From: Thermoprotei archaeon
GTDB lineage: Archaea > Thermoproteota > Thermoprotei > Gearchaeales > WAQG01
DNA: 64,000 nucleotides
Direction: 5' to 3'
Assembly: GCA_049976445.1 (NCBI GenBank)
Contig: JBMFIF010000002.1
Location: 5,115 to 69,114, forward strand
A model generated the notes under the pieces. It had not been told where the DNA came from. It saw only the letters and a program-made list of their open reading frames with translations, and did no database searches. This document shows, piece after piece, positions 47 through 62,775 of the stretch. Made by a program: the position numbers and the translations under genes. The stretch's first letter is position 1. Every line of letters starts with the position of its first letter.

Positions 47-322
47 TTATTTTGTTTTTTGTGTTTTTTGTGCTGTGAGTGTTTTGTGTTTTGTGAGGTA
101 CCAGTATCTTAGGGCTATTGTTTTTCTGTTGTTTGTTGTTTTTGTTGGTTCTATGATTACTTTTCTTGGTATTTCTGTCGAGAGTCTTGTCCTGCATCTT
201 GGGCATCGACCGTTAATACTGTACCTCTTAATCACATCAACGGGACTGATAGCCTCCTCAGTATCATAATACAAAAGATAACCACAAGCCCTACACACAA
301 CACTCATCGGCATCCAACACAC
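47..322 (-). CDS. small zinc-ribbon protein (CxxC-x25-CxxC)
   Basis: 91-aa ORF with two CxxC pairs (CRACG...CPRC). The plus-strand ORF at 75..269 overlaps it and is low-complexity. Confidence 0.35.
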   Translation of the reverse strand: MCWMPMSVVCRACGYLLYYDTEEAISPVDVIKRYSINGRCPRCRTRLSTEIPRKVIIEPTKTTNNRKTIALRYWYLTKHKTLTAQKTQKTK

Positions 323-496: not shown

Positions 497-1420
497 TTAT
501 ACTAGTCTAGGGCAAACGATGTATAATGGGCATGAAGAACAATATTTAACTTTATCACGGCACCAATATTTTCCAACAAGTTCTAATGCGGAGAGTATTT
601 TTGGGTTTTCAGGGAAAAGTTTGTCGCTTATTTTTTTAACTATTGTTGATATTTTCTCTTTATCCTGTATTTTTGCGTCTTCTTGTGTTATGAAGCCAAG
701 TTCTGTTAATGGTCTTAGTAGGGAATTGGTGATTGGTATTCTGATTTCATTGTGAACGTTCTCCCATAGCCCGTAGACCATTGTTATCTGCCAGATTGTC
801 ATGTCTGCAAATTCTGAATCGCAACTGGGTAGTGTGCTTAATGCTTGGCGAAGTATGTTGAGTGCATCTTTTTGATTTTTGGGTTTTCCATTTGAAATGA
901 TATTATTTATTATTTGCTTTTTTTCATTATATTCTAGATCTGTGTATTGGTTGATATCATCTTTTATTGTATTTACGAGATTCCATGAAAAGTCTATTAA
1001 ATCTTCGACATTACTATTTATTATCCATTTGGCAATTATGCTTAGTGTTTTGGATACTTTTTTAATCTGAGTTTCGTTCATGTTTTTTGCTTGTTTAATT
1101 GTTGAGAATGCTAAAAATACGTGTTCCTCATCTGTATATGATTCGATTGATGATGCAATATCGCCTATCTTATTCATTAATTTCCATGCAATGTGAAGTG
1201 TTTTATTTTTCATGATGTTATTTTGATGGTCTAGAAGGTTCACGAGCATTATTCCGAAGATTAAAGATTCTTTTGATAAGGAAATTTTATTAATACCTAT
1301 TTTACTCATTCGTTTCTCTATTCTATCGTTATTCTTCTCGTTCAACTCATATAATCTTTCTCTGAGATAACTGATGGTTCCATTTTTGATGTTAATCATT
1401 CCTTTGTCTGTTAGAAACAT
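497..1420 (-). CDS. HhH-GPD / endonuclease III-like protein with [4Fe-4S] cluster loop, probably catalytically inactive
   Basis: The C-terminus has VGKYWC-x6-C-x2-C-x5-C, the EndoIII/MutY Fe-S cluster loop. The preceding segment aligns to the HhH-GPD region but lacks the catalytic Lys/Asp equivalents. It lies 75 bp downstream of cdvC on the same strand. Confidence 0.55.
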   Translation of the reverse strand: MFLTDKGMINIKNGTISYLRERLYELNEKNNDRIEKRMSKIGINKISLSKESLIFGIMLVNLLDHQNNIMKNKTLHIAWKLMNKIGDIASSIESYTDEEHVFLAFSTIKQAKNMNETQIKKVSKTLSIIAKWIINSNVEDLIDFSWNLVNTIKDDINQYTDLEYNEKKQIINNIISNGKPKNQKDALNILRQALSTLPSCDSEFADMTIWQITMVYGLWENVHNEIRIPITNSLLRPLTELGFITQEDAKIQDKEKISTIVKKISDKLFPENPKILSALELVGKYWCRDKVKYCSSCPLYIVCPRLV

Positions 1421-1495
1421 AATTAAATCTAAATATAAACCTTCCTGATAATCTAGGATTTTAATCTCAGATTTTGGAAAGTATGAAAGTATAAT

Positions 1496-2638
1496 TTAGA
1501 GTGCTTTATGTTGTTCAAACCATTTTTGATAGCGCTCTATCATATCTTTAGTTATGCTTGGCTTTCTGTTTTTGATCACAATTTTAAAATCTTCCATCGT
1601 AATGCTTCTAGGCTCATTTCTGTTATTATGTTCAAAGAATTCTTCGATAACCTTTATGTGAGCATCTCTACACACATCTAGAATATCGCTAGCTGAGTAA
1701 CCCTCAGTCATTTTAGCTAACTCCTCAAGATCTATGGAAGGGTCTAGTTTAAGTTTTGATGTATAGAATTTAAATAACTCAATCCTAGACTTAAAATCTG
1801 GAGGAGGTACTAGTATTCTTTTTTGGAATCGTCTTATAAAAGCTTCATCTAACATCCAAGGTTTATTAGTAGTTCCGATAACAAATATGAGCCGATCTCT
1901 ATCTTTTTCCATTAATCCATCCATTTCTTTGAGTAGTTGTGTGCGCATTCTAGTCTCACCACCAACTTCCTGAAAATGTATTGATGCTAACGCGTCGACC
2001 TCATCTATAAGAATTATTACTGGCTTGTTCTGTGATTCTAGTCTCCTTGCTTCTTTGAATACTCTAGCAATATTTTTTTCTGATTCGCCAAGCCATTTTG
2101 ACATAACATTAGAACTATCAATAAGCATTACTATAGCGTTAATTTCATTTGCAACAGCTGCCATTAACATAGTCTTACCACAACCAGGTGGACCAAAGAG
2201 AAGAATACCCCTTGGCCAACCCAACGGAAAAAGATCACGTCTCTTTATTGGATACACTATTGAATGAATTATTGCTCTCTTTGCATCTTCAAGACCGATT
2301 ATATCCTCCCATCTAATATTCGGCCTGCTCCCCAAGATATACTCTGCATCAATGTTAGATCTTTCCTTTTCACTACTATAATAATAGTTACCAATTTCTT
2401 CTGGTTGATCTTCTAATAATTTTTCAAGCTCTTCGACTTTATTTCTATACATCATTATGTAACGTGCATAGTTCCTATTCATTATGCTATCTGGATATAA
2501 CTCAATTAATTTCGATAGTGCATCTATAGCTCTTCTATAATATCTAATTGCTTCACTATATTGTTTGTTATTTTCATATTGGATAGCTTTAGTGGCATTT
2601 TCCCGTGCATAATCTAACAGTTCTTTACTCGCATACAT
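1496..2638 (-). CDS. cdvC: Vps4-like AAA+ ATPase CdvC (N-terminal MIT domain + AAA domain)
   Basis: N-terminal helical MIT-like region, Walker A GPPGCGKT, Walker B ILIDEVD, 380 aa, immediately downstream of an ESCRT-III gene. Confidence 0.9.
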   Translation of the reverse strand: MYASKELLDYARENATKAIQYENNKQYSEAIRYYRRAIDALSKLIELYPDSIMNRNYARYIMMYRNKVEELEKLLEDQPEEIGNYYYSSEKERSNIDAEYILGSRPNIRWEDIIGLEDAKRAIIHSIVYPIKRRDLFPLGWPRGILLFGPPGCGKTMLMAAVANEINAIVMLIDSSNVMSKWLGESEKNIARVFKEARRLESQNKPVIILIDEVDALASIHFQEVGGETRMRTQLLKEMDGLMEKDRDRLIFVIGTTNKPWMLDEAFIRRFQKRILVPPPDFKSRIELFKFYTSKLKLDPSIDLEELAKMTEGYSASDILDVCRDAHIKVIEEFFEHNNRNEPRSITMEDFKIVIKNRKPSITKDMIERYQKWFEQHKAL

Positions 2639-2662: not shown

Positions 2663-3511
2663 TTACTCAGGTTTCAACTTACCGGCACGACTTAAACTGT
2701 CTATTGCCCTCCTTACATCATCAGGAGAAACGCCTAAATATCTAGCACAGTCCATTACATTAAGCTCACCATTATGTTCTAAAACCCACAAATAAACTTT
2801 ATCTTCCAGAGAGAGAAGTTTCTCAGTTCTCACGTTTATAACTTTATTTTGGGTACTTGAACTTTTATCAGACCTTGAAAGCGGGCCCTCTCCTATACTA
2901 ATAGACTCAGCAACCTTTTGAACTTTATCGGTAATCTTCTCTTTAGAAGCTGTAGGAGGTTCAGGTAATAAAGACCTTTCTTTTATCATAGTACCTGCAA
3001 CTGCAGCGGCTTCTTTCAGGATCTTATTCAGATCTGCATCACTTGTATCTAAGGGTAATGTTTCAAATGTATCTGGATATTTTGCACCTAACTGTTCAAG
3101 TACAGCGTTTGATAAGACATTAAGATCGTTTTCAAGTTCTGGTGCGATTTGTGGTATTACAGTACGAACATCGCTTATAAGACCTTGTAATGAGGAAAGT
3201 AGACTAGCAGCATCACCTAACTCAATAATTGTCTCAAGTCGTAACAGTAGTTGCTCTAATGAAATACTTGCACTTTCAACAGATTTAACTAGCTTCCTTA
3301 ATTCAGCTACCTCATTAGCATATATTGTAGCATATTGAGCATTTCCTGATGCTTGAGCTGTTACAACCTTGTCAAACATCTCTTTCTCTTTTTTCCTCAA
3401 CCTGTATTTGGCTAATTCTAAACGTGAAACATAACTTCTAAGTTTTATTATAGTATCATTAATTATATCTTTAAGATCACGCCTTCTTTTTAAAAAATTT
3501 ATTCTAACCAT
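2663..3511 (-). CDS. cdvB: ESCRT-III (Snf7-family) protein CdvB with C-terminal winged-helix domain
   Basis: Snf7-like helical hairpin (YANEVAELRKLVK...), acidic linker and C-terminal wH-like segment (MDCARYLGVSPDDVRRAIDSLSRAGKL). Positioned 24 bp upstream of cdvC. Confidence 0.8.
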   Translation of the reverse strand: MVRINFLKRRRDLKDIINDTIIKLRSYVSRLELAKYRLRKKEKEMFDKVVTAQASGNAQYATIYANEVAELRKLVKSVESASISLEQLLLRLETIIELGDAASLLSSLQGLISDVRTVIPQIAPELENDLNVLSNAVLEQLGAKYPDTFETLPLDTSDADLNKILKEAAAVAGTMIKERSLLPEPPTASKEKITDKVQKVAESISIGEGPLSRSDKSSSTQNKVINVRTEKLLSLEDKVYLWVLEHNGELNVMDCARYLGVSPDDVRRAIDSLSRAGKLKPE

Positions 3512-3635
3512 GATGAATCAGCTCCTTCCCCATAATTAGGGGAAATAAACGAAGAAAAAGTGAGAAAAAATGATTGTTAATAAAAAAGAAAAAATGATAT
3601 GAAAATAAAAAATTATTTAGGCTATTTATATCATC

Positions 3636-3666
3636 CGCCGCTGAGGCATGTTCATAGCCTGCGGCG
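3636..3666 (-). terminator. GC hairpin (CGCCGC-19 nt-GCGGCG) followed on the minus strand by a T-run
   Basis: 6-bp GC stem located 21 bp after the stop of the ESCRT-III paralog, followed by a T-rich tract in transcript sense. Confidence 0.3.
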
Positions 3667-3686
3667 TCCATATTATGCACCTAGTT

Positions 3687-4325
3687 TTATGTAGTTGAGG
3701 GGCCTTTCTCTTTTTCTGGACTTGGAAGCTCTGAAAACTCTTTGCTTCTACTTTCAGCAACAGCCTGTGCTTCTTTGAGTATTTTTTCAGCTTCTTCACT
3801 CTGTGGACCGAAGGCTCCAAAGTGAACGCCTGAGATCTCTCCAGCTTCAGTGAGTACAGATGTTAGTGCTTCGCCTATGTCGCCTAGTTCTCTCTCAGCT
3901 TCAGGTAATATGCCTATTAATTGTCTCTTAACAGCGTTCACAACACCTATTGCAGGTTCGATTGCAGCAACAACATCACCTATCTCTTTAATCGTACCAA
4001 GTCTTAATATTACGGATTCTAGTGCTATCTTACTCTGAAGTACTACTTTGGCAACTTTTCTTACTCCAGCTACTTCGTTAGCATACATGTATGCACGATC
4101 AGAATCATTCTTTATGTACGCGTTAACCAATTGCTCGAAAAGTCTGCGATCTCGCTCTTGTAAACGGTGATAAAGTTGGTCGAGTTTCATAGTTTGAGTT
4201 TCAAGTTTTCTTGTAACTTGGTCGATTTTATTCTTTAACGGTGGTGATGGATATACTGCATCCCTTATTCTTCCCGAAAGGGGCTCTTTCGGCTCCCTTT
4301 CCCATCTTCTTGCGAAGTTTGCCAT
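3687..4325 (-). CDS. ESCRT-III (CdvB-family) paralog lacking the winged-helix domain
   Basis: 212 aa, same Snf7 core pattern as the neighbouring CdvB (YANEVAGVRKVAKVV...LRLGTIKEIGD) with an acidic C-terminus. It occupies the position where cdvA sits in Sulfolobales. Confidence 0.7.
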   Translation of the reverse strand: MANFARRWEREPKEPLSGRIRDAVYPSPPLKNKIDQVTRKLETQTMKLDQLYHRLQERDRRLFEQLVNAYIKNDSDRAYMYANEVAGVRKVAKVVLQSKIALESVILRLGTIKEIGDVVAAIEPAIGVVNAVKRQLIGILPEAERELGDIGEALTSVLTEAGEISGVHFGAFGPQSEEAEKILKEAQAVAESRSKEFSELPSPEKEKGPSTT

Positions 4326-4565: not shown

Positions 4566-5957
4566 TTATCCTAACATAAGTTTAATGCTTCTGAGGAAAT
4601 CTGAAAAGCATTCGCGAGCAATGTTTGTTATTGATAAATCTTTTTTACTGATGTTTTTGGATAATCGTTCTATTCTATATGATACAGGTGGATGTGCATC
4701 AAACCATTTTAACCACGAATAGGCTCTAGTAGAGTAATCTTGTTCATACTTGAGTCTTCTATATCCTATCCTCTTTAATGCCTCTATGAGGGAATCAGCG
4801 CTATTTGTATAAAATGCTCCTACTAGGTCAGCTCTTTCCTCAAAAAATTTTGCGATGAAAAATACTGTTGTGAAGGAGAGCATTAGGTATAAGTAAGCTA
4901 ATATGATTGGTATGTTTAATGTTATGAGAATTCTTATGATGTATTCAATAGAGAATAATGTTGATACTATTATAGGATCGTAATTGACTATGTGACTAAA
5001 TTCGTGAGCAATGACAGCCTTGATCTCATTTTCTTTTAATGTCATCAGTAGACCAATCGTTATTGCTATGGTAGCATATCTTTTTGAGATACCTGTTGCT
5101 GCAGCGTTTGATATTGTTGTATTTATTAGAGTGATTTTAGGCATGTTGATACGAAAGTTTTTTCTTACTTCATCAACTAGTCCGTATACATCTATACTAG
5201 TTATCTTAACATTCAGAACGTTTATGCCATATTTGTTTAGTATGTTTGTTACTGTCAGGTTGTCTATGGAGTTGTTTATTTTTATTGTTTGTTCGTAGAT
5301 TTCTTTTTTAATTTGTGCTTTATTTTTAGATATTATGTTAATGCTTTTTATGTATTCATTTTCTGGTATCCAGCATTCGACTATGTATGCGTGTCGATTA
5401 TCTTGAGTGATTTTGTAGTCACTAATTTTTAGCATTATCTTATCTGAGAATAGCAAGATTACATATTGACTTAGAACTAATAATATTGGTAAATAATATC
5501 CTAAAAAGTAAAAGCCGATTGTAGCTATTAGAATTAATATACCAATCATAGCGATTGGGTTTCCTAAAAGAAGTTTTAGTATAATATTTTCTGTTCTCGA
5601 TTTTTCTGTTAAGTAATACTTATCTGTGAAAAGGAAAGCGACGGATTTTGCAGGTTGTTGTAATGTGAGAGCTGGATAGAGTAAGCCTTTTATTATCTCA
5701 TACGCCTTGTTAGCAATTTTAATATCCCCGTTTGACCAGATTACTACCATTGGTTCTTCTTCAGGGACTATTATTGCTCGTGCATTTATTTGTTGTAAGG
5801 ATATCTCTATTGCACTGTAATTCTGGAAAGTTGTTTCTGTAAAAGGTATGTTTTTTTCTTCAATTTTTTTCTTTACATCATTTTTGTTTAAGGATTCTGG
5901 TAATCGATATATGAATGGTATGTTGCTATCTTCTGGACTAGCCAGCATCAAAGTCAC
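4566..5957 (-). CDS. membrane Zn-metalloprotease, M48/HtpX-like (HEXXH)
   Basis: IAHEFSHIV (HExxH) embedded in a multi-TM region, with an N-terminal soluble domain; 463 aa. Confidence 0.55.
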   Translation of the reverse strand: MTLMLASPEDSNIPFIYRLPESLNKNDVKKKIEEKNIPFTETTFQNYSAIEISLQQINARAIIVPEEEPMVVIWSNGDIKIANKAYEIIKGLLYPALTLQQPAKSVAFLFTDKYYLTEKSRTENIILKLLLGNPIAMIGILILIATIGFYFLGYYLPILLVLSQYVILLFSDKIMLKISDYKITQDNRHAYIVECWIPENEYIKSINIISKNKAQIKKEIYEQTIKINNSIDNLTVTNILNKYGINVLNVKITSIDVYGLVDEVRKNFRINMPKITLINTTISNAAATGISKRYATIAITIGLLMTLKENEIKAVIAHEFSHIVNYDPIIVSTLFSIEYIIRILITLNIPIILAYLYLMLSFTTVFFIAKFFEERADLVGAFYTNSADSLIEALKRIGYRRLKYEQDYSTRAYSWLKWFDAHPPVSYRIERLSKNISKKDLSITNIARECFSDFLRSIKLMLG

Positions 5958-12818: not shown

Positions 12819-14201
12819 TTGGTGAGGATATTGGATGTTTATGGTAAGAAGCGAAAACGGGTTGTGATAATGGGTGCTGCAGGTCGAGATTTTCATAATT
12901 ATAATATTCTTTATCGTAATAATACAGATTACGAAGTTGTTGCGTTTACTGCAACACAGATACCGGGCATTGCTGGTCGTAAATATCCACCTGAATTAGC
13001 TGGCCCACTTTATCCTCAAGGAATACCTATTATGAGCGAAAATGAATTATCTCAAATAATAAAAAAGTATAATGTTGACGAAGCTGTATTTTCGTACAGT
13101 GATGTGCTTTATAATGACATAATGCATAAATCTTCAATAGTGTTGAGTTCCGGAGCGAACTTTAAGCTGATAGCTCCAGAAAAAACCATGATAAAGTCGA
13201 ATAAACCTGTTATAGCAGTTACTGCTTCGCGTACTGGTGCTGGAAAAAGTACAGTGTCTCGTAAGCTTGTCTCGCTGTTTAAGGAAGAAGGAATACGTAT
13301 TGTAGTTGTGAGACATCCTATGCCTTATGGAGACCTTTTAAATAGTGTTGTTATAAGACTTGAAAAGCTTGAAGATTTAGATAGATTAAATCTAACAATA
13401 GAAGAGAGGGAGGAGTTTGAACATTACATGAAAATGGGTATTGTAGCATATGAAGGTGTTGATTATGAAAAAATACTTAAGAACGCTGAAAGCGAGGCTG
13501 ACATAATTATTTGGGATGGAGGAAATAATGATACACCATTTTATAAGCCAGATCTTTACATAACAGTGGTCGACCCTACCAGACCAGGGCATGAAACGGG
13601 CTCGTATCCTGGAGAAATAAATGTTATGATGGCTGATTTAATAGTAATCAGTAAGATTAATACTGCAAAACCTGATGATGTAGATACTGTAGAGAAAAAT
13701 GTGCGTAAGCTTAATCCTAAGGCTACTATAGTTAAAGCAAAATTTGAAATTTCGGTTGACAACCCTCAAATGATAAAAGGTAAGAAAGTTGTAGTTGTTG
13801 AGGATGGGCCTTCTGTAACGCATGGTCACATGCCCTTTGGAGCTGGTTACATTGCTGCAAAACAATATGGGGCTTCAGAAATTGTTGATCCTAAACCATA
13901 TGCACAAGGCATATTTAAAGAAATCTATGAAATGTATAAACATACAGCCAATGTAGTACCAACAATAGGTTATGGTGCAGAACAAATGAAACAGTTACAA
14001 GAATTCATTAATAAAATACCTGGGGATACAGTAATATTGGGGTCGCCATCAGATATAAGCCGATATCTCAAGTTAAATAAGCCTGTTGTTCATGTAAAAT
14101 ATGAGATGGTTGATGTAGGAGAACCAAACTTCAGCTCTATAATAAAACAATGGATAGCTAAAAAAATTAAGAAAGCAAAATTGATAGCTTCTCAGTCATG
14201 A
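12819..14201 (+). CDS. P-loop protein, possibly cyclic 2,3-diphosphoglycerate synthetase family
   Basis: 460 aa; N-terminal GAAGRDFHNYN-type segment and internal P-loop ASRTGAGKST. Length and layout resemble cDPG synthetase, but the family assignment is from memory only. Confidence 0.35.
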   Translation: MVRILDVYGKKRKRVVIMGAAGRDFHNYNILYRNNTDYEVVAFTATQIPGIAGRKYPPELAGPLYPQGIPIMSENELSQIIKKYNVDEAVFSYSDVLYNDIMHKSSIVLSSGANFKLIAPEKTMIKSNKPVIAVTASRTGAGKSTVSRKLVSLFKEEGIRIVVVRHPMPYGDLLNSVVIRLEKLEDLDRLNLTIEEREEFEHYMKMGIVAYEGVDYEKILKNAESEADIIIWDGGNNDTPFYKPDLYITVVDPTRPGHETGSYPGEINVMMADLIVISKINTAKPDDVDTVEKNVRKLNPKATIVKAKFEISVDNPQMIKGKKVVVVEDGPSVTHGHMPFGAGYIAAKQYGASEIVDPKPYAQGIFKEIYEMYKHTANVVPTIGYGAEQMKQLQEFINKIPGDTVILGSPSDISRYLKLNKPVVHVKYEMVDVGEPNFSSIIKQWIAKKIKKAKLIASQS

Positions 14202-44220: not shown

Positions 44221-47200
44221 ATGAAAAATCGATTTATTGCTGCATTTTTGATGATTTTTATTTTATTGGAGATTCCGCTGTATCTTCAATCTGTGTTTGC
44301 TTCAGGTAATTTTACGTTAGTATCTACATTATGGGGTTCTCAATCTAACCCTCAAAAGGTTTATCCTGGAAGTAGTAATGTAAGATTTATTGTTCTAATT
44401 AGGAATGATTATTCAAATTTAGTCAGTGTTGTTGGGTATCTCAGCTTACCTTATGGATTTTCTGGTACGAATGGTGGAAATGTTTTAAGTGCTGTCGGTT
44501 ACATATCAACAAATAACACTATAAGATATAATATAAATAAGGGGGAAATCTTTGAACTTGATTATTTCTTAAATATAGCTGGCTTTTTAGCTCCGGGCAC
44601 TTATTACGGTAATTTGACCTTGAATTTTACTAACTCTACATTTTCAAACGGTAATTTTACTATGAATGTGCCAATGACAGTTAGTAGTTTTCCAACATTT
44701 AATTTTCAAATTATTAGTGTATACTGGTCAACAACTGGAGGTACTATAGTTAACGCTGTACCTGGCACAAGAAACGTTGAACTTAACGTTATTCTTAAAA
44801 ATATTGGCACTGACAATATCAATAGTATATCGGCTCAACTAATTCTAAACAAGCCATTTAATCCTAATAAAGTTATGAGTAGTGCACAGCAAGTAAATAA
44901 AGGCAGCACGTTTACGCTAACGTTTACAGGTATTTCAATTGATTTTGCCAGCGCACCTGGTAACTATATGGAACAGTTAATGATTAACTCTACTTTTATT
45001 GGATACGGAGGAGCTACTAGCACATACACAAATATGATTAATTTATCATTAGTAATAGGGAACTATTCAAATGCAGGAATACAAATTGTTAGTGTTCAGT
45101 GGAATGGTGGTGAAAAGGTTTATTCCGGATCTAGGAAAGTTTCATTAGATGTAGTAATACAAAACATGGGAAGCTACACAATAAGTAATATGTTATCACG
45201 TATAATTCTTCCTAGTGGTTTCACCAATGCATATGGTTCAAACATAATTAATACAACATCTACTGCTGTCCTAAATTACGGAAATAGTATTACATTAAAC
45301 TTTAGTCCAATATACATAGGTGACTCTACAAAACCTGGTATTTATTATGTTAGACTTGTTATTATGTCAGTTGTTTCAATAGATAACACAAATCTGATAG
45401 CAAAGGATAATTTTACCATACCGATTTATGTTAATGATTTAATAACACCAATTGATCTGGTAAGTGTAGATTGGTCTTATAATGGAAATCCAGCACCTGC
45501 TTTACCAGGATCGCAATATGTAATACTGTCAATCACTTTTGTAAATAGAGGAGAAGATACATATTCAGGTTTTCAACCGAGGTTAATACTACCCCGAGGT
45601 TTTACGGTCTTTGGAACTAGTGCAGATCCTGGTCCTATTACGCCAGGTTCAATATTTACGGTTAGATCTTATGTGAATGTTAGTGATACCGTATTACCAG
45701 GGAATTATATTGCGAATTTAACTTTAAGGTTTAGTGTAAATCCATCAGGTATAAATACTGTTGGATCGATGAACTTCTCAATACCACTTTACATAATGGA
45801 TCCTAAAGGTTTTGATACCAAAATATCCATAGTAAATGCTTATTGGGGCACTGGTACCCCTAATCCAGTTTATCCAGGATCTAAAAATGTACCTTTAACT
45901 GTTGAGATTGTTAATGTTGGACTTTATACAGCACAAGCTGTTCAAATAGGTATTTCTGCTCCTGAAACTTTCACACCAATAATTAATTCAACTAGCGTCA
46001 CATCTACATTACCTTCAGGTTCCTTTGCCTCTGCTGTCTTGTATTTTGATATATCACCACATACTACTCCAGGATCTTATGTGTTCTTAGTGAACGTGAA
46101 ATATTTTATAAGTGTTTATGGTGCAACAATATATAGATATGTTAAATTTGTTTTTGTATTGTATGTATCTCAACCAACTTCAGGGCCTCCATATATTAAT
46201 GTAGTTAATTCGGGTTGGCTTAATAATTATCCTGTATATCCTGGGACTCAGAATGCTACATTCAGTTTAACTATAAACAATGAGGCGCCATTTCCGATTG
46301 CTGGGATTCATTTAAAACTTGTTTTACCTAGAGGATTTACACCTGGAGTCAATGGAGTAGAATCATACATAGGAGGCCCAATACAGCAATGGCAAACAGC
46401 GTCTGCAAGTTTTAGTATAAATGTTAATGCGAGCACATTACCTGGATTATATACTGCATCCTTAAAAATTGATTATATTTTATTGAGTGGAGGAAATAAC
46501 TTAAAGAATAGCGAAGAGAAAGAGATAGTACTACGTGTAAACTCGTTAAAAGGTTTTGAATATATTACATATAATTGGGTCGGATATGCTCCGAACCCGG
46601 GTAATGTAGGAGCTACTTTGATTGTTCTTGTCAGAAATACAGAGGTGCCAACTATGAAGGGAATCGTTGCAGAGATTCAGTTACCAAAAGGTTTTAACTC
46701 TACAATAACTGGGACAAGAGTTTTTAATGTAACACCTTATATATTTACTTCTATAAATCAGGTTCAGAATTTATTACAACGCACACCTGTTTCTAGCTTA
46801 CAATTTATGGTTCCTCAACAAGCAACACAAGCAAATCTCGGAGATTTCCTGGCAATACCTATATCAGTATCTATTAACAAAAATGTAACCCCAGGCTATT
46901 ATCCGATAATAATAAAGCTTAATTTTTTAGATCAATGGAATGTTGTTAGGAACGTTATAGTTAATGGAGACTTCTGGCTACCAGGTTCATCAAACATTAT
47001 TCAAGTTGTAGAAGGAAAATCTAAGTTATTAGTTGGTAATAGGACTGCAGAAATCAATATATATCTTAGGAATAATGGTTCATCGTCAGTTTACAACGTG
47101 TATGTTGCAATAACTAACATGGAAGCACCAATCTCGATATCGTCAACTGTGAAATATATACCTATAATTGGGCCCAATTCTGAAGTGCCCGTATCATGGG

Positions 47201-47799
47201 TTGTATCCGTAAGCCCTTCAATCAGTTATTTGGGGTCAGTACCGATAGTACTTTCAATTACTTTTGTAGATCCTGCAGGCTTCAGGCATAATATTACTCA
47301 GACAGCAATTCTTTTCATAGAAGGTCTTGCTGAAATAAAGTTCGTTGATGTAACCGTGGAGCCAAAACCTATCTATTTAGGTTCCACAATAACAATATCG
47401 GCAACATTAATCAACTTAGGAACTTATAAGGCCGGAAACGTTGAGGCATGGTTAGAGGGTAATGACATAATTACACTTTCTAATTCATATACGTTTGTGG
47501 GTGATATAGATGTTGGTTCGCAAATACCGATAAGTTTATCAGCTAATATAAGCAACAAAGCTGTAAATAAAACAATCGTGTATATAGTAATTAAATTTAA
47601 GAATGTTTTTAATGAAATAACGACTGAACGGTATCCGATAGTTCTGAACATTACATATAAACCTCCACAGACGCAAACACAAGCGCAGAGTCTTATTTTA
47701 CCAAATGTATACGAACTTTTAATAATTGTAGCTACTGTTATATTCCTATCAGTAAGTGGATATATGATCTATCTCTTGTATAAGAAAACAAAGCATTAA
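44221..47799 (+). CDS. large secreted surface protein with about 8-9 repeated beta-sandwich (CARDB-like) modules and a C-terminal TM anchor
   Basis: Signal peptide; recurring (V/I)YPGS/T-x-NV...L/V-x-N-x-G modules about 110-130 aa apart; C-terminal hydrophobic helix + KKTKH; 1192 aa. Confidence 0.6.
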   Translation: MKNRFIAAFLMIFILLEIPLYLQSVFASGNFTLVSTLWGSQSNPQKVYPGSSNVRFIVLIRNDYSNLVSVVGYLSLPYGFSGTNGGNVLSAVGYISTNNTIRYNINKGEIFELDYFLNIAGFLAPGTYYGNLTLNFTNSTFSNGNFTMNVPMTVSSFPTFNFQIISVYWSTTGGTIVNAVPGTRNVELNVILKNIGTDNINSISAQLILNKPFNPNKVMSSAQQVNKGSTFTLTFTGISIDFASAPGNYMEQLMINSTFIGYGGATSTYTNMINLSLVIGNYSNAGIQIVSVQWNGGEKVYSGSRKVSLDVVIQNMGSYTISNMLSRIILPSGFTNAYGSNIINTTSTAVLNYGNSITLNFSPIYIGDSTKPGIYYVRLVIMSVVSIDNTNLIAKDNFTIPIYVNDLITPIDLVSVDWSYNGNPAPALPGSQYVILSITFVNRGEDTYSGFQPRLILPRGFTVFGTSADPGPITPGSIFTVRSYVNVSDTVLPGNYIANLTLRFSVNPSGINTVGSMNFSIPLYIMDPKGFDTKISIVNAYWGTGTPNPVYPGSKNVPLTVEIVNVGLYTAQAVQIGISAPETFTPIINSTSVTSTLPSGSFASAVLYFDISPHTTPGSYVFLVNVKYFISVYGATIYRYVKFVFVLYVSQPTSGPPYINVVNSGWLNNYPVYPGTQNATFSLTINNEAPFPIAGIHLKLVLPRGFTPGVNGVESYIGGPIQQWQTASASFSINVNASTLPGLYTASLKIDYILLSGGNNLKNSEEKEIVLRVNSLKGFEYITYNWVGYAPNPGNVGATLIVLVRNTEVPTMKGIVAEIQLPKGFNSTITGTRVFNVTPYIFTSINQVQNLLQRTPVSSLQFMVPQQATQANLGDFLAIPISVSINKNVTPGYYPIIIKLNFLDQWNVVRNVIVNGDFWLPGSSNIIQVVEGKSKLLVGNRTAEINIYLRNNGSSSVYNVYVAITNMEAPISISSTVKYIPIIGPNSEVPVSWVVSVSPSISYLGSVPIVLSITFVDPAGFRHNITQTAILFIEGLAEIKFVDVTVEPKPIYLGSTITISATLINLGTYKAGNVEAWLEGNDIITLSNSYTFVGDIDVGSQIPISLSANISNKAVNKTIVYIVIKFKNVFNEITTERYPIVLNITYKPPQTQTQAQSLILPNVYELLIIVATVIFLSVSGYMIYLLYKKTKH

Positions 47800-60738: not shown

Positions 60739-62775
60739 TTGAAAATATTACCGTGGATCATTATAGTGATGATCTTAAACTTAATGTTCGTAATGCAAGC
60801 ACCTATTCACGCACAAACGTTACCTCCAAACAGAGCAATAATATTCCCAACACCATTATCACCTGCGGTTGTTTTAGTTGGATCAACATTTAATGTTACA
60901 ATAAATGCGCCTCAAAGTGCATTAAATTGGACAGCCCAAGGATATGGTATTAAACTAGTAAATAATACATTAATATCTTTAAACACGACATTTTACATTA
61001 CCAACACTTATTATAATTCATCAAATAGCCTGTGGATCTTAAGTTTAAACGTACCTGATACTACGATACCCGGACTTTATACGCTTCAGGTTATCTTTCG
61101 TCTCGGTAATTCGATTTTAAAATATGTTCAGGAAAAAAGTGTATGGATTCTTGATAAATGGCCTGATAGGTTACGTATTGCTCAATTTACCGATGTTCAT
61201 ATAGGTGTTCCTGAGGCGATAAGTCTCTTTACTACTGGGATTATTAGTGCTCAACTATTTAATTCAACTGTAGTATTCATAACTGGAGATGATGGTGATA
61301 CTGCGGCTGAATGGCAAGAACTAACTTTTAGGCAGCTTTCATTACTTGCACCCACACTACCAACTTTTGCCATACCTGGAAATCACGATGCTAGAACAAC
61401 AGCCTATGATGATTATGTAGGGCCTCGTCAATACTTCACAAACTTAGGAAAATTCCTTGTAATAGGAATAGATACAGGTGAAAATGGAGCTATATCTTAT
61501 AACACACTACGATGGATGCAACAAGTACTAATGTTATATGGCGATAATAAAGTCAAAATACTCCTTATGCATCATCCCTTATTCAGTACCAAAGTACAAG
61601 GTTATCTCAGCACATCATTATCAAACGTTTCAACATCAATGCTATATTATAGCTGGGCTGCTAACCCTGACATCGCCAAGGCTCTTCTCAAGACTATAGA
61701 AGACTTTAACATCACATTAATCTTAGCTGGCCATGTGCACACAGACAGAATTGTTGTAGTAAATTCAACAGTAACAAAATCACTACACTGGTTTATAACC
61801 ACTACAACAACAGGAGAAGGAAGGCCTGAATATAATGGTTTTAGAATAATTGACATAGATAAAGAAGGCCATGTTAACATACCTTTCATGCCTCCATGGG
61901 GAAAAATCGAACAATATCCGAATAGTATTCCTATAGATAAAACATGGTCACAAGGATACTTAGATGCAAGACTCATATATAATAATAAAAAAATAGTAGT
62001 AACAGTTAACATTACTAATGCTCTAACTTACGTTAATTTAAATTCTGTAATAATACTTAACTCAAACAGTAGTGTTACGTTATCAAACTATAAAACATAT
62101 ACTAACTCTTATGGATCAAGCGCTTCAGCAACATTATTAAGCAGTACAAGTATTGCAGGATTAAACTATTATGCAGTAAAAATAAACGTTCCATCAAGAA
62201 GTGGTATAAGAATAACATTAGCACCATATGATGATACTGATGTACCAACAGGAAAAATAGTATACACATTACCACTTCAACCAGAACCTAATGCCCCAAT
62301 ATCGGTATACATACAAGCATCCGATACAGGCTGGGGTATCTTGAGAGTATATGCAGAATATTTATATCAAAATAAAGAAACTGTTATCGAATCAACATAT
62401 GAACAACCATACTATAAGATAACATTACCAGGATTTCCACCTGGAACAGTTATTAATATTACAATAAAAATTACTGATGTTGCAGGTCATGCTACAACAT
62501 TGACCCTGCCCATAAACTTCGGCATCATATCTACTACATCTACTACGACGTTAACCCTAACTACTACGACCACAACATCAACTACATCAAAAACCACTAC
62601 AACAATCACAACGACCACTACAACTATAACCACCACGAGTACACCATTATTAACAACCACTACAGAGACCTTAATAACGACCAGCCCAGTTAGTATTATT
62701 AATCCATTAACCGTTATAATAATAGCCATAGTAATAGGAGTGATACTATTTGTTATAATTGTCAGACGTAAATAA
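60739..62775 (+). CDS. surface-anchored calcineurin-like metallophosphoesterase with N-terminal beta domain, Thr-rich stalk and C-terminal TM anchor
   Basis: Signal peptide; GNHDARTT and GHVHTDR phosphoesterase motifs; about 60-aa Thr/Ser-rich linker; terminal hydrophobic helix + RRK; 678 aa. Confidence 0.6.
   Translation: MKILPWIIIVMILNLMFVMQAPIHAQTLPPNRAIIFPTPLSPAVVLVGSTFNVTINAPQSALNWTAQGYGIKLVNNTLISLNTTFYITNTYYNSSNSLWILSLNVPDTTIPGLYTLQVIFRLGNSILKYVQEKSVWILDKWPDRLRIAQFTDVHIGVPEAISLFTTGIISAQLFNSTVVFITGDDGDTAAEWQELTFRQLSLLAPTLPTFAIPGNHDARTTAYDDYVGPRQYFTNLGKFLVIGIDTGENGAISYNTLRWMQQVLMLYGDNKVKILLMHHPLFSTKVQGYLSTSLSNVSTSMLYYSWAANPDIAKALLKTIEDFNITLILAGHVHTDRIVVVNSTVTKSLHWFITTTTTGEGRPEYNGFRIIDIDKEGHVNIPFMPPWGKIEQYPNSIPIDKTWSQGYLDARLIYNNKKIVVTVNITNALTYVNLNSVIILNSNSSVTLSNYKTYTNSYGSSASATLLSSTSIAGLNYYAVKINVPSRSGIRITLAPYDDTDVPTGKIVYTLPLQPEPNAPISVYIQASDTGWGILRVYAEYLYQNKETVIESTYEQPYYKITLPGFPPGTVINITIKITDVAGHATTLTLPINFGIISTTSTTTLTLTTTTTTSTTSKTTTTITTTTTTITTTSTPLLTTTTETLITTSPVSIINPLTVIIIAIVIGVILFVIIVRRK

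What the first reader, a model, noticed from the sequence alone, without database searches (positions are those of the whole stretch)
497..1420. Degenerate EndoIII/HhH-GPD Fe-S protein downstream of cdvC
The 307-aa protein ends with VGKYWC-x6-C-x2-C-x5-C, an exact endonuclease III/MutY [4Fe-4S] cluster-loop spacing. The preceding 60 residues align to the HhH-GPD motif region. The positions of the catalytic Lys and Asp are occupied by Glu and Ile/Pro, and there is an extra N-terminal extension of about 100 aa. It lies 75 bp downstream of cdvC on the same strand, so it may be co-transcribed. A catalytically dead, Fe-S-containing DNA-binding glycosylase homolog attached to the division operon could act as a nucleoid/division coupling factor; this is an inference.
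Basis: partly seen in the sequence, partly recalled or inferred. Interest (0 to 1): 0.55.

Follow-up and report, generated by a model that had tools for sequence, protein, structure and literature searches.

The report
Asp-less EndoIII-like Fe-S protein beside cdvC
The gene encodes a very divergent, unannotated relative of the DNA-repair enzyme endonuclease III that keeps the fold and the four iron-sulfur cysteines but has lost the catalytic residues; it sits beside the cell-division gene cdvC, but a functional tie to division is not supported.

Summary
The ORF is real: 497..1420 on the minus strand, with the true start probably at 1399 (300 aa). It ends in CX6CX2CX5C. No Pfam or NCBIfam model detects it.

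In the profile alignment EndoIII K120 is Glu196 and catalytic D138 is Thr224, the N-cap of the following helix. The HhH hairpin has no Gly-x-Gly.

The family is tiny: 19 clusters among 1.8 billion proteins, all unnamed, and the named members are MAGs of Thermoprotei and related archaea. Thirteen distant members keep the Asp (one has Glu) and the four looked up are not near cdv genes. A monophyletic Thr clade lies at the 3' end of cdvC in the three of its four lineages that could be checked.

In two of those lineages the gene is convergent with cdvC. In the window clade an invariant BRE/TATA-like block precedes it. Co-transcription is therefore not conserved, and the adjacency sits inside a longer syntenic block.

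dN/dS is about 0.1, so the protein is functional. The most likely reading is a non-catalytic (or TAG-like, weakly catalytic) Fe-S glycosylase homolog. A division role remains speculative.

The parts
497..1399 (-). CDS of the EndoIII-like Fe-S protein 'X' (300 aa from the conserved Met; stop codon at 497-499)
1400..1420 (-). Seven-codon upstream extension (MFLTDKG) of the mechanical ORF, probably not translated
   Evidence: The ATG at 1420 is not conserved in L001, L002, L004 or L006. It lies only ~12 nt downstream of the conserved TATA-like box, which is upstream of where a transcription start would be expected (inference from archaeal promoter geometry, own knowledge).
1427..1445 (-). Conserved BRE/TATA-like block GGAAGGTTTATATTTAGAT in the cdvC-X spacer (TATA-like TTTATATT = 1432-1439); putative own promoter of X
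   Evidence: It is almost the only invariant stretch in the spacer across five loci, while the rest of the spacer has a ~35-nt indel. Function as a promoter is inferred, not shown.
776..874 (-). Degenerate helix-hairpin-helix (residues 176-208; hairpin TLPSCD, no Gly-x-Gly); Glu196 (812-814) sits at the position of EndoIII Lys120
   Evidence: hhalign aligns LPSCDSEFAD with LPGVGRKTAN. AF2 secondary structure has H176-188 and H195-208. Per-sequence table.
728..730 (-). Thr224 at the position of the invariant catalytic Asp (EndoIII D138); N-cap of helix 225-233
   Evidence: hhalign aligns IPITNSLLRP with IAVDTHIFRV. Thr is invariant in the 9 Thr-type sequences; Asp (Glu in one) is found in the 13 others. 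The helix starts at residue 225.
512..562 (-). Fe-S cluster loop C280-x6-C287-x2-C290-x5-C296
   Evidence: Motif scan. Four Cys invariant in 22 sequences. Aligned to the EndoIII cluster cysteines. Actual cluster binding is not tested.
1496..2638 (-). cdvC (Vps4-like AAA ATPase), upstream neighbour; not part of X
   Evidence: NCBIfam cell_div_CdvC E 6e-151, below the curated cutoff (502.5 vs 650 bits). Pfam MIT + AAA + Vps4_C.
2663..3511 (-). cdvB-like ESCRT-III with C-terminal winged helix; context
   Evidence: NCBIfam CdvB1/B2 E 1e-30 and CdvB E 1e-27, both below cutoff; HTH hits at residues 235-280.
3687..4325 (-). cdvB1/B2-like ESCRT-III; context
   Evidence: NCBIfam CdvB1/B2 E 5e-56, below the curated cutoff.
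47..322 (-). Small Zn-ribbon protein with a basic tail, downstream neighbour conserved in all loci; context

Best explanation
X is a stand-alone gene for a highly divergent member of the endonuclease III/MutY branch of the HhH-GPD fold.

Shown:
- It keeps the complete two-domain fold and the four-cysteine [4Fe-4S] loop.
- A small monophyletic clade (the window clade plus three sister clusters) has Thr instead of the invariant catalytic Asp. Thr can still cap the helix but cannot act as the carboxylate.
- In the window protein the position of the EndoIII nucleophile Lys is Glu, and the HhH hairpin has no Gly-x-Gly.
- The protein is under strong purifying selection.

Inferred: it acts as a pseudo-glycosylase. 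That means an Fe-S-stabilised protein that still docks on nucleic acid, for example lesion, abasic-site or structure binding, in the manner of S. pombe Mag2 or the activity-less D. radiodurans EndoIII-3. It would not be the cell's EndoIII.

The evidence points to transcription from its own BRE/TATA-like promoter. Its place beside cdvC is best explained as a conserved piece of gene order in this Geoarchaeota-related lineage, not as membership of the cdv operon.

For: Sequence: the profile matched EndoIII-3 at E 1.7e-4, Bst EndoIII at 9e-4, and ROS1 and MutY in PDB. hhalign against EcNth gave 84% probability and E 7.7e-6. The Nth sequence was verified against 2abk.

Catalytic positions: K120 aligns to E196 and D138 to T224. 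Thr is invariant in 9 sequences. In the 13 deeper relatives the motif is VPID..(x4)R (one has Glu). The Thr clade is monophyletic in an NJ tree.

Selection: dN/dS is 0.075-0.126 for unsaturated pairs, similar to cdvB.

Own promoter and no operon constraint: an invariant GGAA[GA]GTTTATATTT block sits in a variable spacer. X is convergent with cdvC in L012/L013 and L015.

Precedents: Mag2 is non-catalytic and binds DNA weakly (PMC4433238). DrEndoIII3 binds DNA but has no detectable EndoIII activity (PMC10523315).
Against: No biochemical data exist. Loss of the Asp does not by itself prove loss of catalysis, because E. coli TAG is an Asp-less HhH glycosylase (own knowledge).

Nucleic-acid binding is itself uncertain. 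The hairpin lacks Gly-x-Gly and carries Asp and Glu. In part of the window clade the Fe-S loop has lost most basic residues (CLEDNKHC), and the C-terminal half is acidic, pI 4.8-6.3.

Adjacency to cdvC in three lineages that share only 27-28% identity in X is more persistent than expected for a random neighbour. The Thr-for-Asp change coincides with that adjacency.

Catalytic-residue assignment rests on profile alignment and predicted secondary structure. Model coordinates could not be inspected.
Confidence: 0.55

Rival explanations
1. X is still an active, monofunctional DNA glycosylase. It would use a different catalytic arrangement, or need little catalytic power because its substrate is a labile cationic lesion, as with TAG acting on 3-methyladenine.
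Against: Glu196 is not conserved across the Thr clade; P0008 and P0009 have Arg there. The Gly-x-Gly hairpin is missing. The basic character of the Fe-S loop erodes within the clade. In most HhH-GPD enzymes mutation of this Asp greatly reduces or abolishes activity (own knowledge).
Confidence: 0.2
2. One reading: X is a DNA-binding, catalytically dead glycosylase homolog that works with the Cdv machinery, for example by coupling the nucleoid or unsegregated DNA to ESCRT-III/Vps4-driven division.
For: X abuts the 3' end of cdvC in all three Thr-type lineages with readable context, despite 27-28% identity in X. Only the Asp-less clade is cdv-adjacent. An in-place inversion kept the position. In the window clade cdvA is missing from its usual slot between cdvB1/2 and cdvB.
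Against: Orientation is not conserved and a promoter-like element of its own is present. The syntenic block also includes unrelated IF-2B-family, Zn-ribbon, M48 and Asp/Asn-tRNA ligase genes, so adjacency has a simpler explanation. By eye, X has no proline-rich MIM-like segment and no C-terminal tail like the one on CdvA that binds the CdvB winged helix; its C-terminus is the Fe-S loop. The four Asp-type relatives looked up are elsewhere in their genomes. No literature links cdvC with endonuclease III.
Confidence: 0.12
3. X does not act on DNA at all. It could be a hydrolase or binder of a nucleotide, nucleoside or RNA ligand (as Qng1/DUF2419 uses this fold for queuosine monophosphate), or an Fe-S-based redox or iron sensor.
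Against: The best sequence and fold matches are to the Fe-S DNA glycosylases, including their cluster loop. Qng1 lacks the Fe-S cluster and, like the DNA glycosylases, depends on a conserved Asp, which X lacks (own knowledge).
Confidence: 0.08

Closest known systems
Endonuclease III (Nth), especially D. radiodurans EndoIII-3 (PDB 8a5g, 4uob) and E. coli EndoIII (2abk)
   Different: Only 13-17% identity. About 90 more residues. The hairpin has no Gly-x-Gly. Lys120 is Glu and Asp138 is Thr, whereas the review read describes the HhH motif and the catalytic Asp and Lys as features of the DrEndoIII structures (PMC10523315). No Pfam or NCBIfam model detects it.
MutY / MIG family of monofunctional Fe-S HhH-GPD glycosylases
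   Different: Lacks the catalytic Asp and has no MutY C-terminal domain. Whether a MutY-type catalytic Glu equivalent exists was not tested.
S. pombe Mag2 (non-catalytic HhH-GPD paralog)
   Same: A glycosylase-fold protein retained under selection without base-excision activity and proposed to bind or protect abasic DNA (PMC4433238). This is the functional analogy for a pseudo-glycosylase.
   Different: Mag2 belongs to the AlkA/Mag branch, has no Fe-S cluster and is eukaryotic. There is no sequence relationship beyond the fold.
E. coli TAG (3-methyladenine DNA glycosylase I)
   Different: TAG binds zinc rather than an Fe-S cluster, is much smaller, and is only distantly similar.
Asp-retaining members of the same unnamed archaeal family (for example P0010-P0016, P0020)
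   Same: Same family by profile search (E 6e-18 to 2e-6). Same Fe-S loop, the FPEDP motif and the degenerate LP-x3-Q-R-x2-N hairpin.
   Different: They keep the H-x-P-x-D motif, so they are probably active. The four looked up are not next to cdv genes; each follows a different upstream unknown gene at a gap of 2-3 nt or an overlap.

Membership tests
HhH-GPD superfamily (Pfam PF00730) | Two-domain all-alpha fold with a central helix-hairpin-helix | tested here: met
HhH-GPD superfamily (Pfam PF00730) | Significant match to the curated sequence model | tested here: not met
   PF00730 gave no hit at E <= 1 for X or for any of the 22 family members.
HhH-GPD superfamily (Pfam PF00730) | Hairpin with the Gly-hydrophobic-Gly signature (LPGVG) | tested here: not met
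   The hairpin is LPSCDS in X and LP-x3-Q-R in the wider family; there is no G-x-G.
HhH-GPD superfamily (Pfam PF00730) | Gly/Pro-rich loop followed by the invariant catalytic Asp | tested here: not met
   The Pro is present (P222), but the Asp position is Thr224 in all 9 Thr-type sequences. It is Asp (Glu in one) in the 13 deeper relatives.
Endonuclease III (Nth), bifunctional glycosylase/AP lyase | Nucleophilic Lys in the second HhH helix (Ec K120) | tested here: not met
   Glu196 aligns with K120.
Endonuclease III / MutY Fe-S subgroup | C-terminal C-x6-C-x2-C-x5-C ligands of a [4Fe-4S] cluster | tested here: met
   C280, C287, C290 and C296 have exact spacing and are invariant in 22 sequences. 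They align to the EndoIII cysteines. Pfam EndIII_4Fe-2S is only sub-threshold, in 3 members.
Endonuclease III / MutY Fe-S subgroup | Actual binding of a [4Fe-4S] cluster and base-excision activity | not testable with these tools
   Requires purified protein with UV-vis or EPR spectroscopy and glycosylase assays.
cdv (ESCRT-III/Vps4) division operon | Conserved co-orientation and co-transcription with cdvB-cdvC | tested here: not met
   Co-directional only in the window clade. Convergent with cdvC in L012/L013 and L015. A conserved BRE/TATA-like block lies in the spacer.
cdv (ESCRT-III/Vps4) division operon | Conserved neighbourhood with cdv genes across the protein family | tested here: inconclusive
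   Adjacent to cdvC in 3 of 3 readable Thr-type lineages, inside a longer syntenic block. Not adjacent in 4 of 4 Asp-type loci.
cdv (ESCRT-III/Vps4) division operon | Recognisable interaction motif for CdvC MIT or the CdvB winged helix | not tested
   Reading the sequence by eye shows no Pro-rich MIM-like segment or free C-terminal tail. No formal motif search or complex prediction was run.

The most novel reading that the evidence does not exclude
In a Geoarchaeota-related lineage, an EndoIII-like Fe-S protein lost its catalytic Asp at the time it settled beside cdvC. It would now serve the Cdv division machinery as a DNA sensor. For example, it could detect DNA trapped in the division plane and hold back CdvB/CdvC-driven abscission, or partly replace the DNA-binding role of CdvA, whose gene is missing from the cdv cluster in the window clade.
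Probability: 0.1. Interest if true: 0.8.

Novelty: new variant of a known kind. Interest (0 to 1): 0.35.

Why it matters
The finding defines a small, previously unannotated branch of the endonuclease III/MutY Fe-S glycosylase fold in thermophilic TACK archaea. Every member with a name is called 'hypothetical protein', or is named only for a fused terpene-cyclase domain. Within that branch is a clade that has become a probable pseudo-enzyme.

Non-catalytic Fe-S glycosylase homologs are rare. They are useful for separating the structural, DNA-scanning and redox roles of the cluster from catalysis.

If the persistent position next to cdvC reflected function, it would offer a first candidate for a link between DNA surveillance and ESCRT-type division in archaea. 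The present evidence makes that unlikely. The practical value is mainly better annotation and a defined Asp/Thr pair of subfamilies for biochemical comparison.

Tried and rejected
- Pfam, NCBIfam and PADLOC scans of X and of all 22 family members gave no significant family. The only hits were sub-threshold: DUF2400, EndIII_4Fe-2S, mutY and the DR2438 glycosylase.
- A single-sequence search of PDB gave only E ~0.6 MutY hits.
- The first AF2 model, built from 6 close sequences, was mediocre (pLDDT 67). It was superseded by the 22-sequence model.
- With the Thr-clade alignment, the genome collection returned only the Geoarchaeota MAG. The metagenome collection returned only more window-clade loci with identical synteny. 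No further independent lineage could be added.
- The P0008 contig was too short for context.
- The afdb50 fold library was unavailable.
- I searched for cdvA elsewhere in the window clade. tblastn found none in the window or in L001-L006. The last homolog search returned only the two query proteins. Genome-wide presence of cdvA is therefore unresolved.
- The sigma-70 promoter and intrinsic-terminator scan is not informative for an archaeon.
- Net charge as a proxy for DNA binding proved weak, because E. coli EndoIII is itself only +2 over the same region.
- Literature searches for DUF2400, cdvC with endonuclease III, and Geoarchaeota with CdvA gave nothing relevant.
- I considered and rejected a decaying pseudogene (dN/dS ~0.1) and a defence-system component (housekeeping context, no PADLOC hit).

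Full report
**1. What is in the sequence**

The minus strand of the window carries an ORF at 497..1420 (307 aa). It ends ...VGKYWCRDKVKYCSSCPLYIVCPRLV, which is exactly C-x6-C-x2-C-x5-C. A six-frame scan of all 64 kb finds this motif only once inside an ORF.

Upstream on the same strand lie three division genes:
- cdvC at 1496..2638 (NCBIfam CdvC E 6e-151; Pfam MIT + AAA + Vps4_C)
- a cdvB-like ESCRT-III with a C-terminal winged helix at 2663..3511
- a cdvB1/B2-like gene at 3687..4325

All five close homologs begin at the window's Met8, and the ATG at 1420 is not conserved in their DNA. The likely protein is therefore 300 aa (497..1399) and the spacer is 96 bp. Residue numbers below use the 300-aa form.

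**2. Family and fold**

Pfam, NCBIfam and PADLOC give nothing for the protein, here called X. A single-sequence PDB search gives only E ~0.6 matches to MutY.

The word-indexed search of 5.8 billion proteins found six proteins: X itself and five homologs at 65-83% identity. All are 'hypothetical protein' in Thermoprotei MAGs or unnamed. An exhaustive profile search of 1.84 billion cluster representatives found only 19 clusters at E <= 1e-3.

In the 22-sequence alignment the four cysteines are the only invariant columns.

- The profile matches D. radiodurans EndoIII-3 (E 1.7e-4), G. stearothermophilus EndoIII (9e-4), ROS1 and MutY in PDB.
- hhalign against E. coli Nth gives 84% probability and E 7.7e-6, with X 184-300 on Nth 108-208.
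- AlphaFold2 with six sequences gave a mediocre model (pLDDT 67). With 22 sequences it gave pLDDT 90 and pTM 0.88.

X is therefore one expanded EndoIII-like fold. It is not an EndoIII domain with a separate 100-residue N-terminal appendage.

**3. Catalytic positions**

In both the HMMER and the hhalign alignments, LPSCDSEFAD pairs with LPGVGRKTAN and IPITNSLLRP pairs with IAVDTHIFRV.
- EndoIII Lys120 corresponds to Glu196.
- The invariant Asp138 corresponds to Thr224.
- The hairpin has no Gly-x-Gly.

In the model the next helix starts at residue 225, so Thr224 occupies the helix N-cap position that the Asp holds in EndoIII. That Thr can cap a helix but cannot supply the carboxylate is inference from general structural knowledge.

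Across the family the column splits cleanly. The six window-clade sequences and P0007, P0008 and P0009 have Thr. The 13 more distant members have the classical H-x-P-x-D...R motif, with Glu in one. The Thr sequences form one clade in a neighbour-joining tree, so the Asp was lost once.

X is not decaying. dN/dS is 0.126 (window vs L001) and 0.075 (L002 vs L006), comparable to cdvB.

**4. Genomic context**

In the window clade the order is M48 peptidase, cdvB1/2, cdvB, cdvC, X, Zn-ribbon gene, then an IF-2B-family gene on the other strand. This holds in every locus read.

Two sister Thr-type lineages share 53-57% identity in CdvC but only 27-28% in X. In both, X is again at the 3' end of cdvC, but convergent with it:
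- P0007, in 'Ca. Geoarchaeota archaeon S146_104_esom' (loci L012, L013, L016): the two genes overlap by 4 nt.
- P0009 (locus L015): a 23-bp gap.

In L012 the flanking genes keep their orientation, so X alone was inverted in place. The L015 contig ends just beyond X on that side.

In the window clade the cdvC-X spacer contains one invariant block, GGAA[G/A]GTTTATATTT (window 1427-1445), amid indels. It looks like an archaeal BRE/TATA element. Its distance to the ATG at 1399 fits a transcription start about 10 nt upstream of that ATG. This is inference from the usual -26/-27 TATA position.

Four Asp-type relatives were looked up, and none is near cdv genes:
- P0020 and P0025 overlap an upstream winged-helix gene and lie near HSP20 and an Lhr helicase.
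- P0012 follows a 131-aa unknown gene, with topoisomerase VI genes a few kb upstream.
- P0014 follows a 499-aa unknown gene.

So adjacency to cdvC is real and specific to the Thr clade. Co-transcription is not conserved, and the conserved block also includes functionally unrelated genes.

**5. Interpretation**

Shown:
- An EndoIII/MutY-like Fe-S fold.
- Loss of the canonical Lys, Asp and Gly-x-Gly.
- Purifying selection.
- A narrow distribution among TACK-archaeal MAGs.
- No curated annotation anywhere.

Inferred: X is a pseudo-glycosylase that retains some nucleic-acid or lesion binding. Two precedents exist:
- S. pombe Mag2 is non-catalytic and binds DNA weakly (PMC4433238).
- D. radiodurans EndoIII-3 binds DNA but shows no detectable EndoIII activity (PMC10523315). 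It is also the best sequence and fold match.

Caveats:
- E. coli TAG shows that an HhH glycosylase can work without the Asp (own knowledge), so residual activity on labile lesions cannot be excluded.
- DNA binding is itself uncertain. The hairpin is acidic. In P0004-P0006 the cluster loop has lost most basic residues (CLEDNKHC, for example), and in P0003-P0006 the C-terminal half is acidic (pI 4.8-6.3). Charge is a weak proxy, though, because EcNth is only +2 over the same region.
- The good fold match to Qng1 keeps a non-DNA substrate possible.

Its only support is neighbourhood, and it is weakened by the orientation flips and the separate promoter-like element. By eye there is also no MIT- or winged-helix-interaction motif. 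I put it near 0.1.

**6. Comparison and novelty**

X works like, and folds like, the Fe-S branch of the HhH-GPD superfamily. It fails three defining sequence tests: the Pfam model, the Gly-x-Gly hairpin and the catalytic Asp. It also fails the EndoIII-specific Lys test. I therefore do not file it as an endonuclease III. I call it a new variant: an unannotated archaeal subfamily whose Thr clade is probably non-catalytic.

Interest is moderate to low. The finding is a sound annotation gain and provides a natural Asp/Thr pair for biochemistry. There is no strong evidence for a new biological system.

**7. Dead ends**

These are listed under 'tried and rejected'. Briefly:
- The genome and metagenome scans added no new independent lineage.
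- The P0008 contig was too short for context.
- afdb50 was unavailable.
- The search for cdvA elsewhere in the window clade was inconclusive.
- Literature searches found nothing that links cdvC with EndoIII-like genes.

Noticed in passing
window 3512-3686 (gap between cdvB1/2 3687-4325 and cdvB 2663-3511); compare L012 10897-11526 and L015 3065-3703: In the two sister lineages a cdvA gene (PF18822, 209-212 aa) sits between cdvB1/2 and cdvB. In the window clade that slot is a 175-bp spacer. tblastn finds no CdvA in the 64-kb window or in loci L001-L006, although CdvB keeps its CdvA-binding-type winged helix. Whether cdvA moved elsewhere or was lost is unresolved.
   Followed up: partly
window 47-322 (-): A small protein (about 85-91 aa) with a four-Cys Zn-ribbon and a Lys/Arg-rich tail lies next to X in every locus read on that side: in tandem in the window clade, head-to-head in the Geoarchaeota MAG (32% identity). 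It has no significant Pfam family.
   Followed up: partly
P0017 (592 aa) and P0023 (552 aa), not in the window: In Culexarchaeia and Methanomethylicota MAGs the X-family domain is fused to an N-terminal squalene-hopene-cyclase/prenyltransferase-like alpha/alpha toroid. NCBI names these proteins 'terpene cyclase/mutase family protein'. It is an odd partner for a DNA glycosylase fold.
   Followed up: partly
L007 7463-8041, L011 2359-2964, L017 7603-7998, L019 6498-7997: Each Asp-retaining relative follows a different upstream gene of unknown function, separated by 2-3 nt or overlapping it. The partners are a 192-201-aa winged-helix protein (overlap 41-62 nt), a 131-aa protein and a 499-aa protein. 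This suggests two-gene modules.
   Followed up: partly
window 4566-5957 (-): An M48 (HtpX-like) peptidase with a long N-terminal extension lies directly upstream of cdvB1/2 in the window clade and in the Geoarchaeota MAG. It is absent from that position in L015.
   Followed up: no
window 44221-47799 (+): A 1192-aa ORF has no NCBIfam match at E <= 1e-5. ORFs 12819-14201 and 60739-62775 are also unassigned.
   Followed up: no
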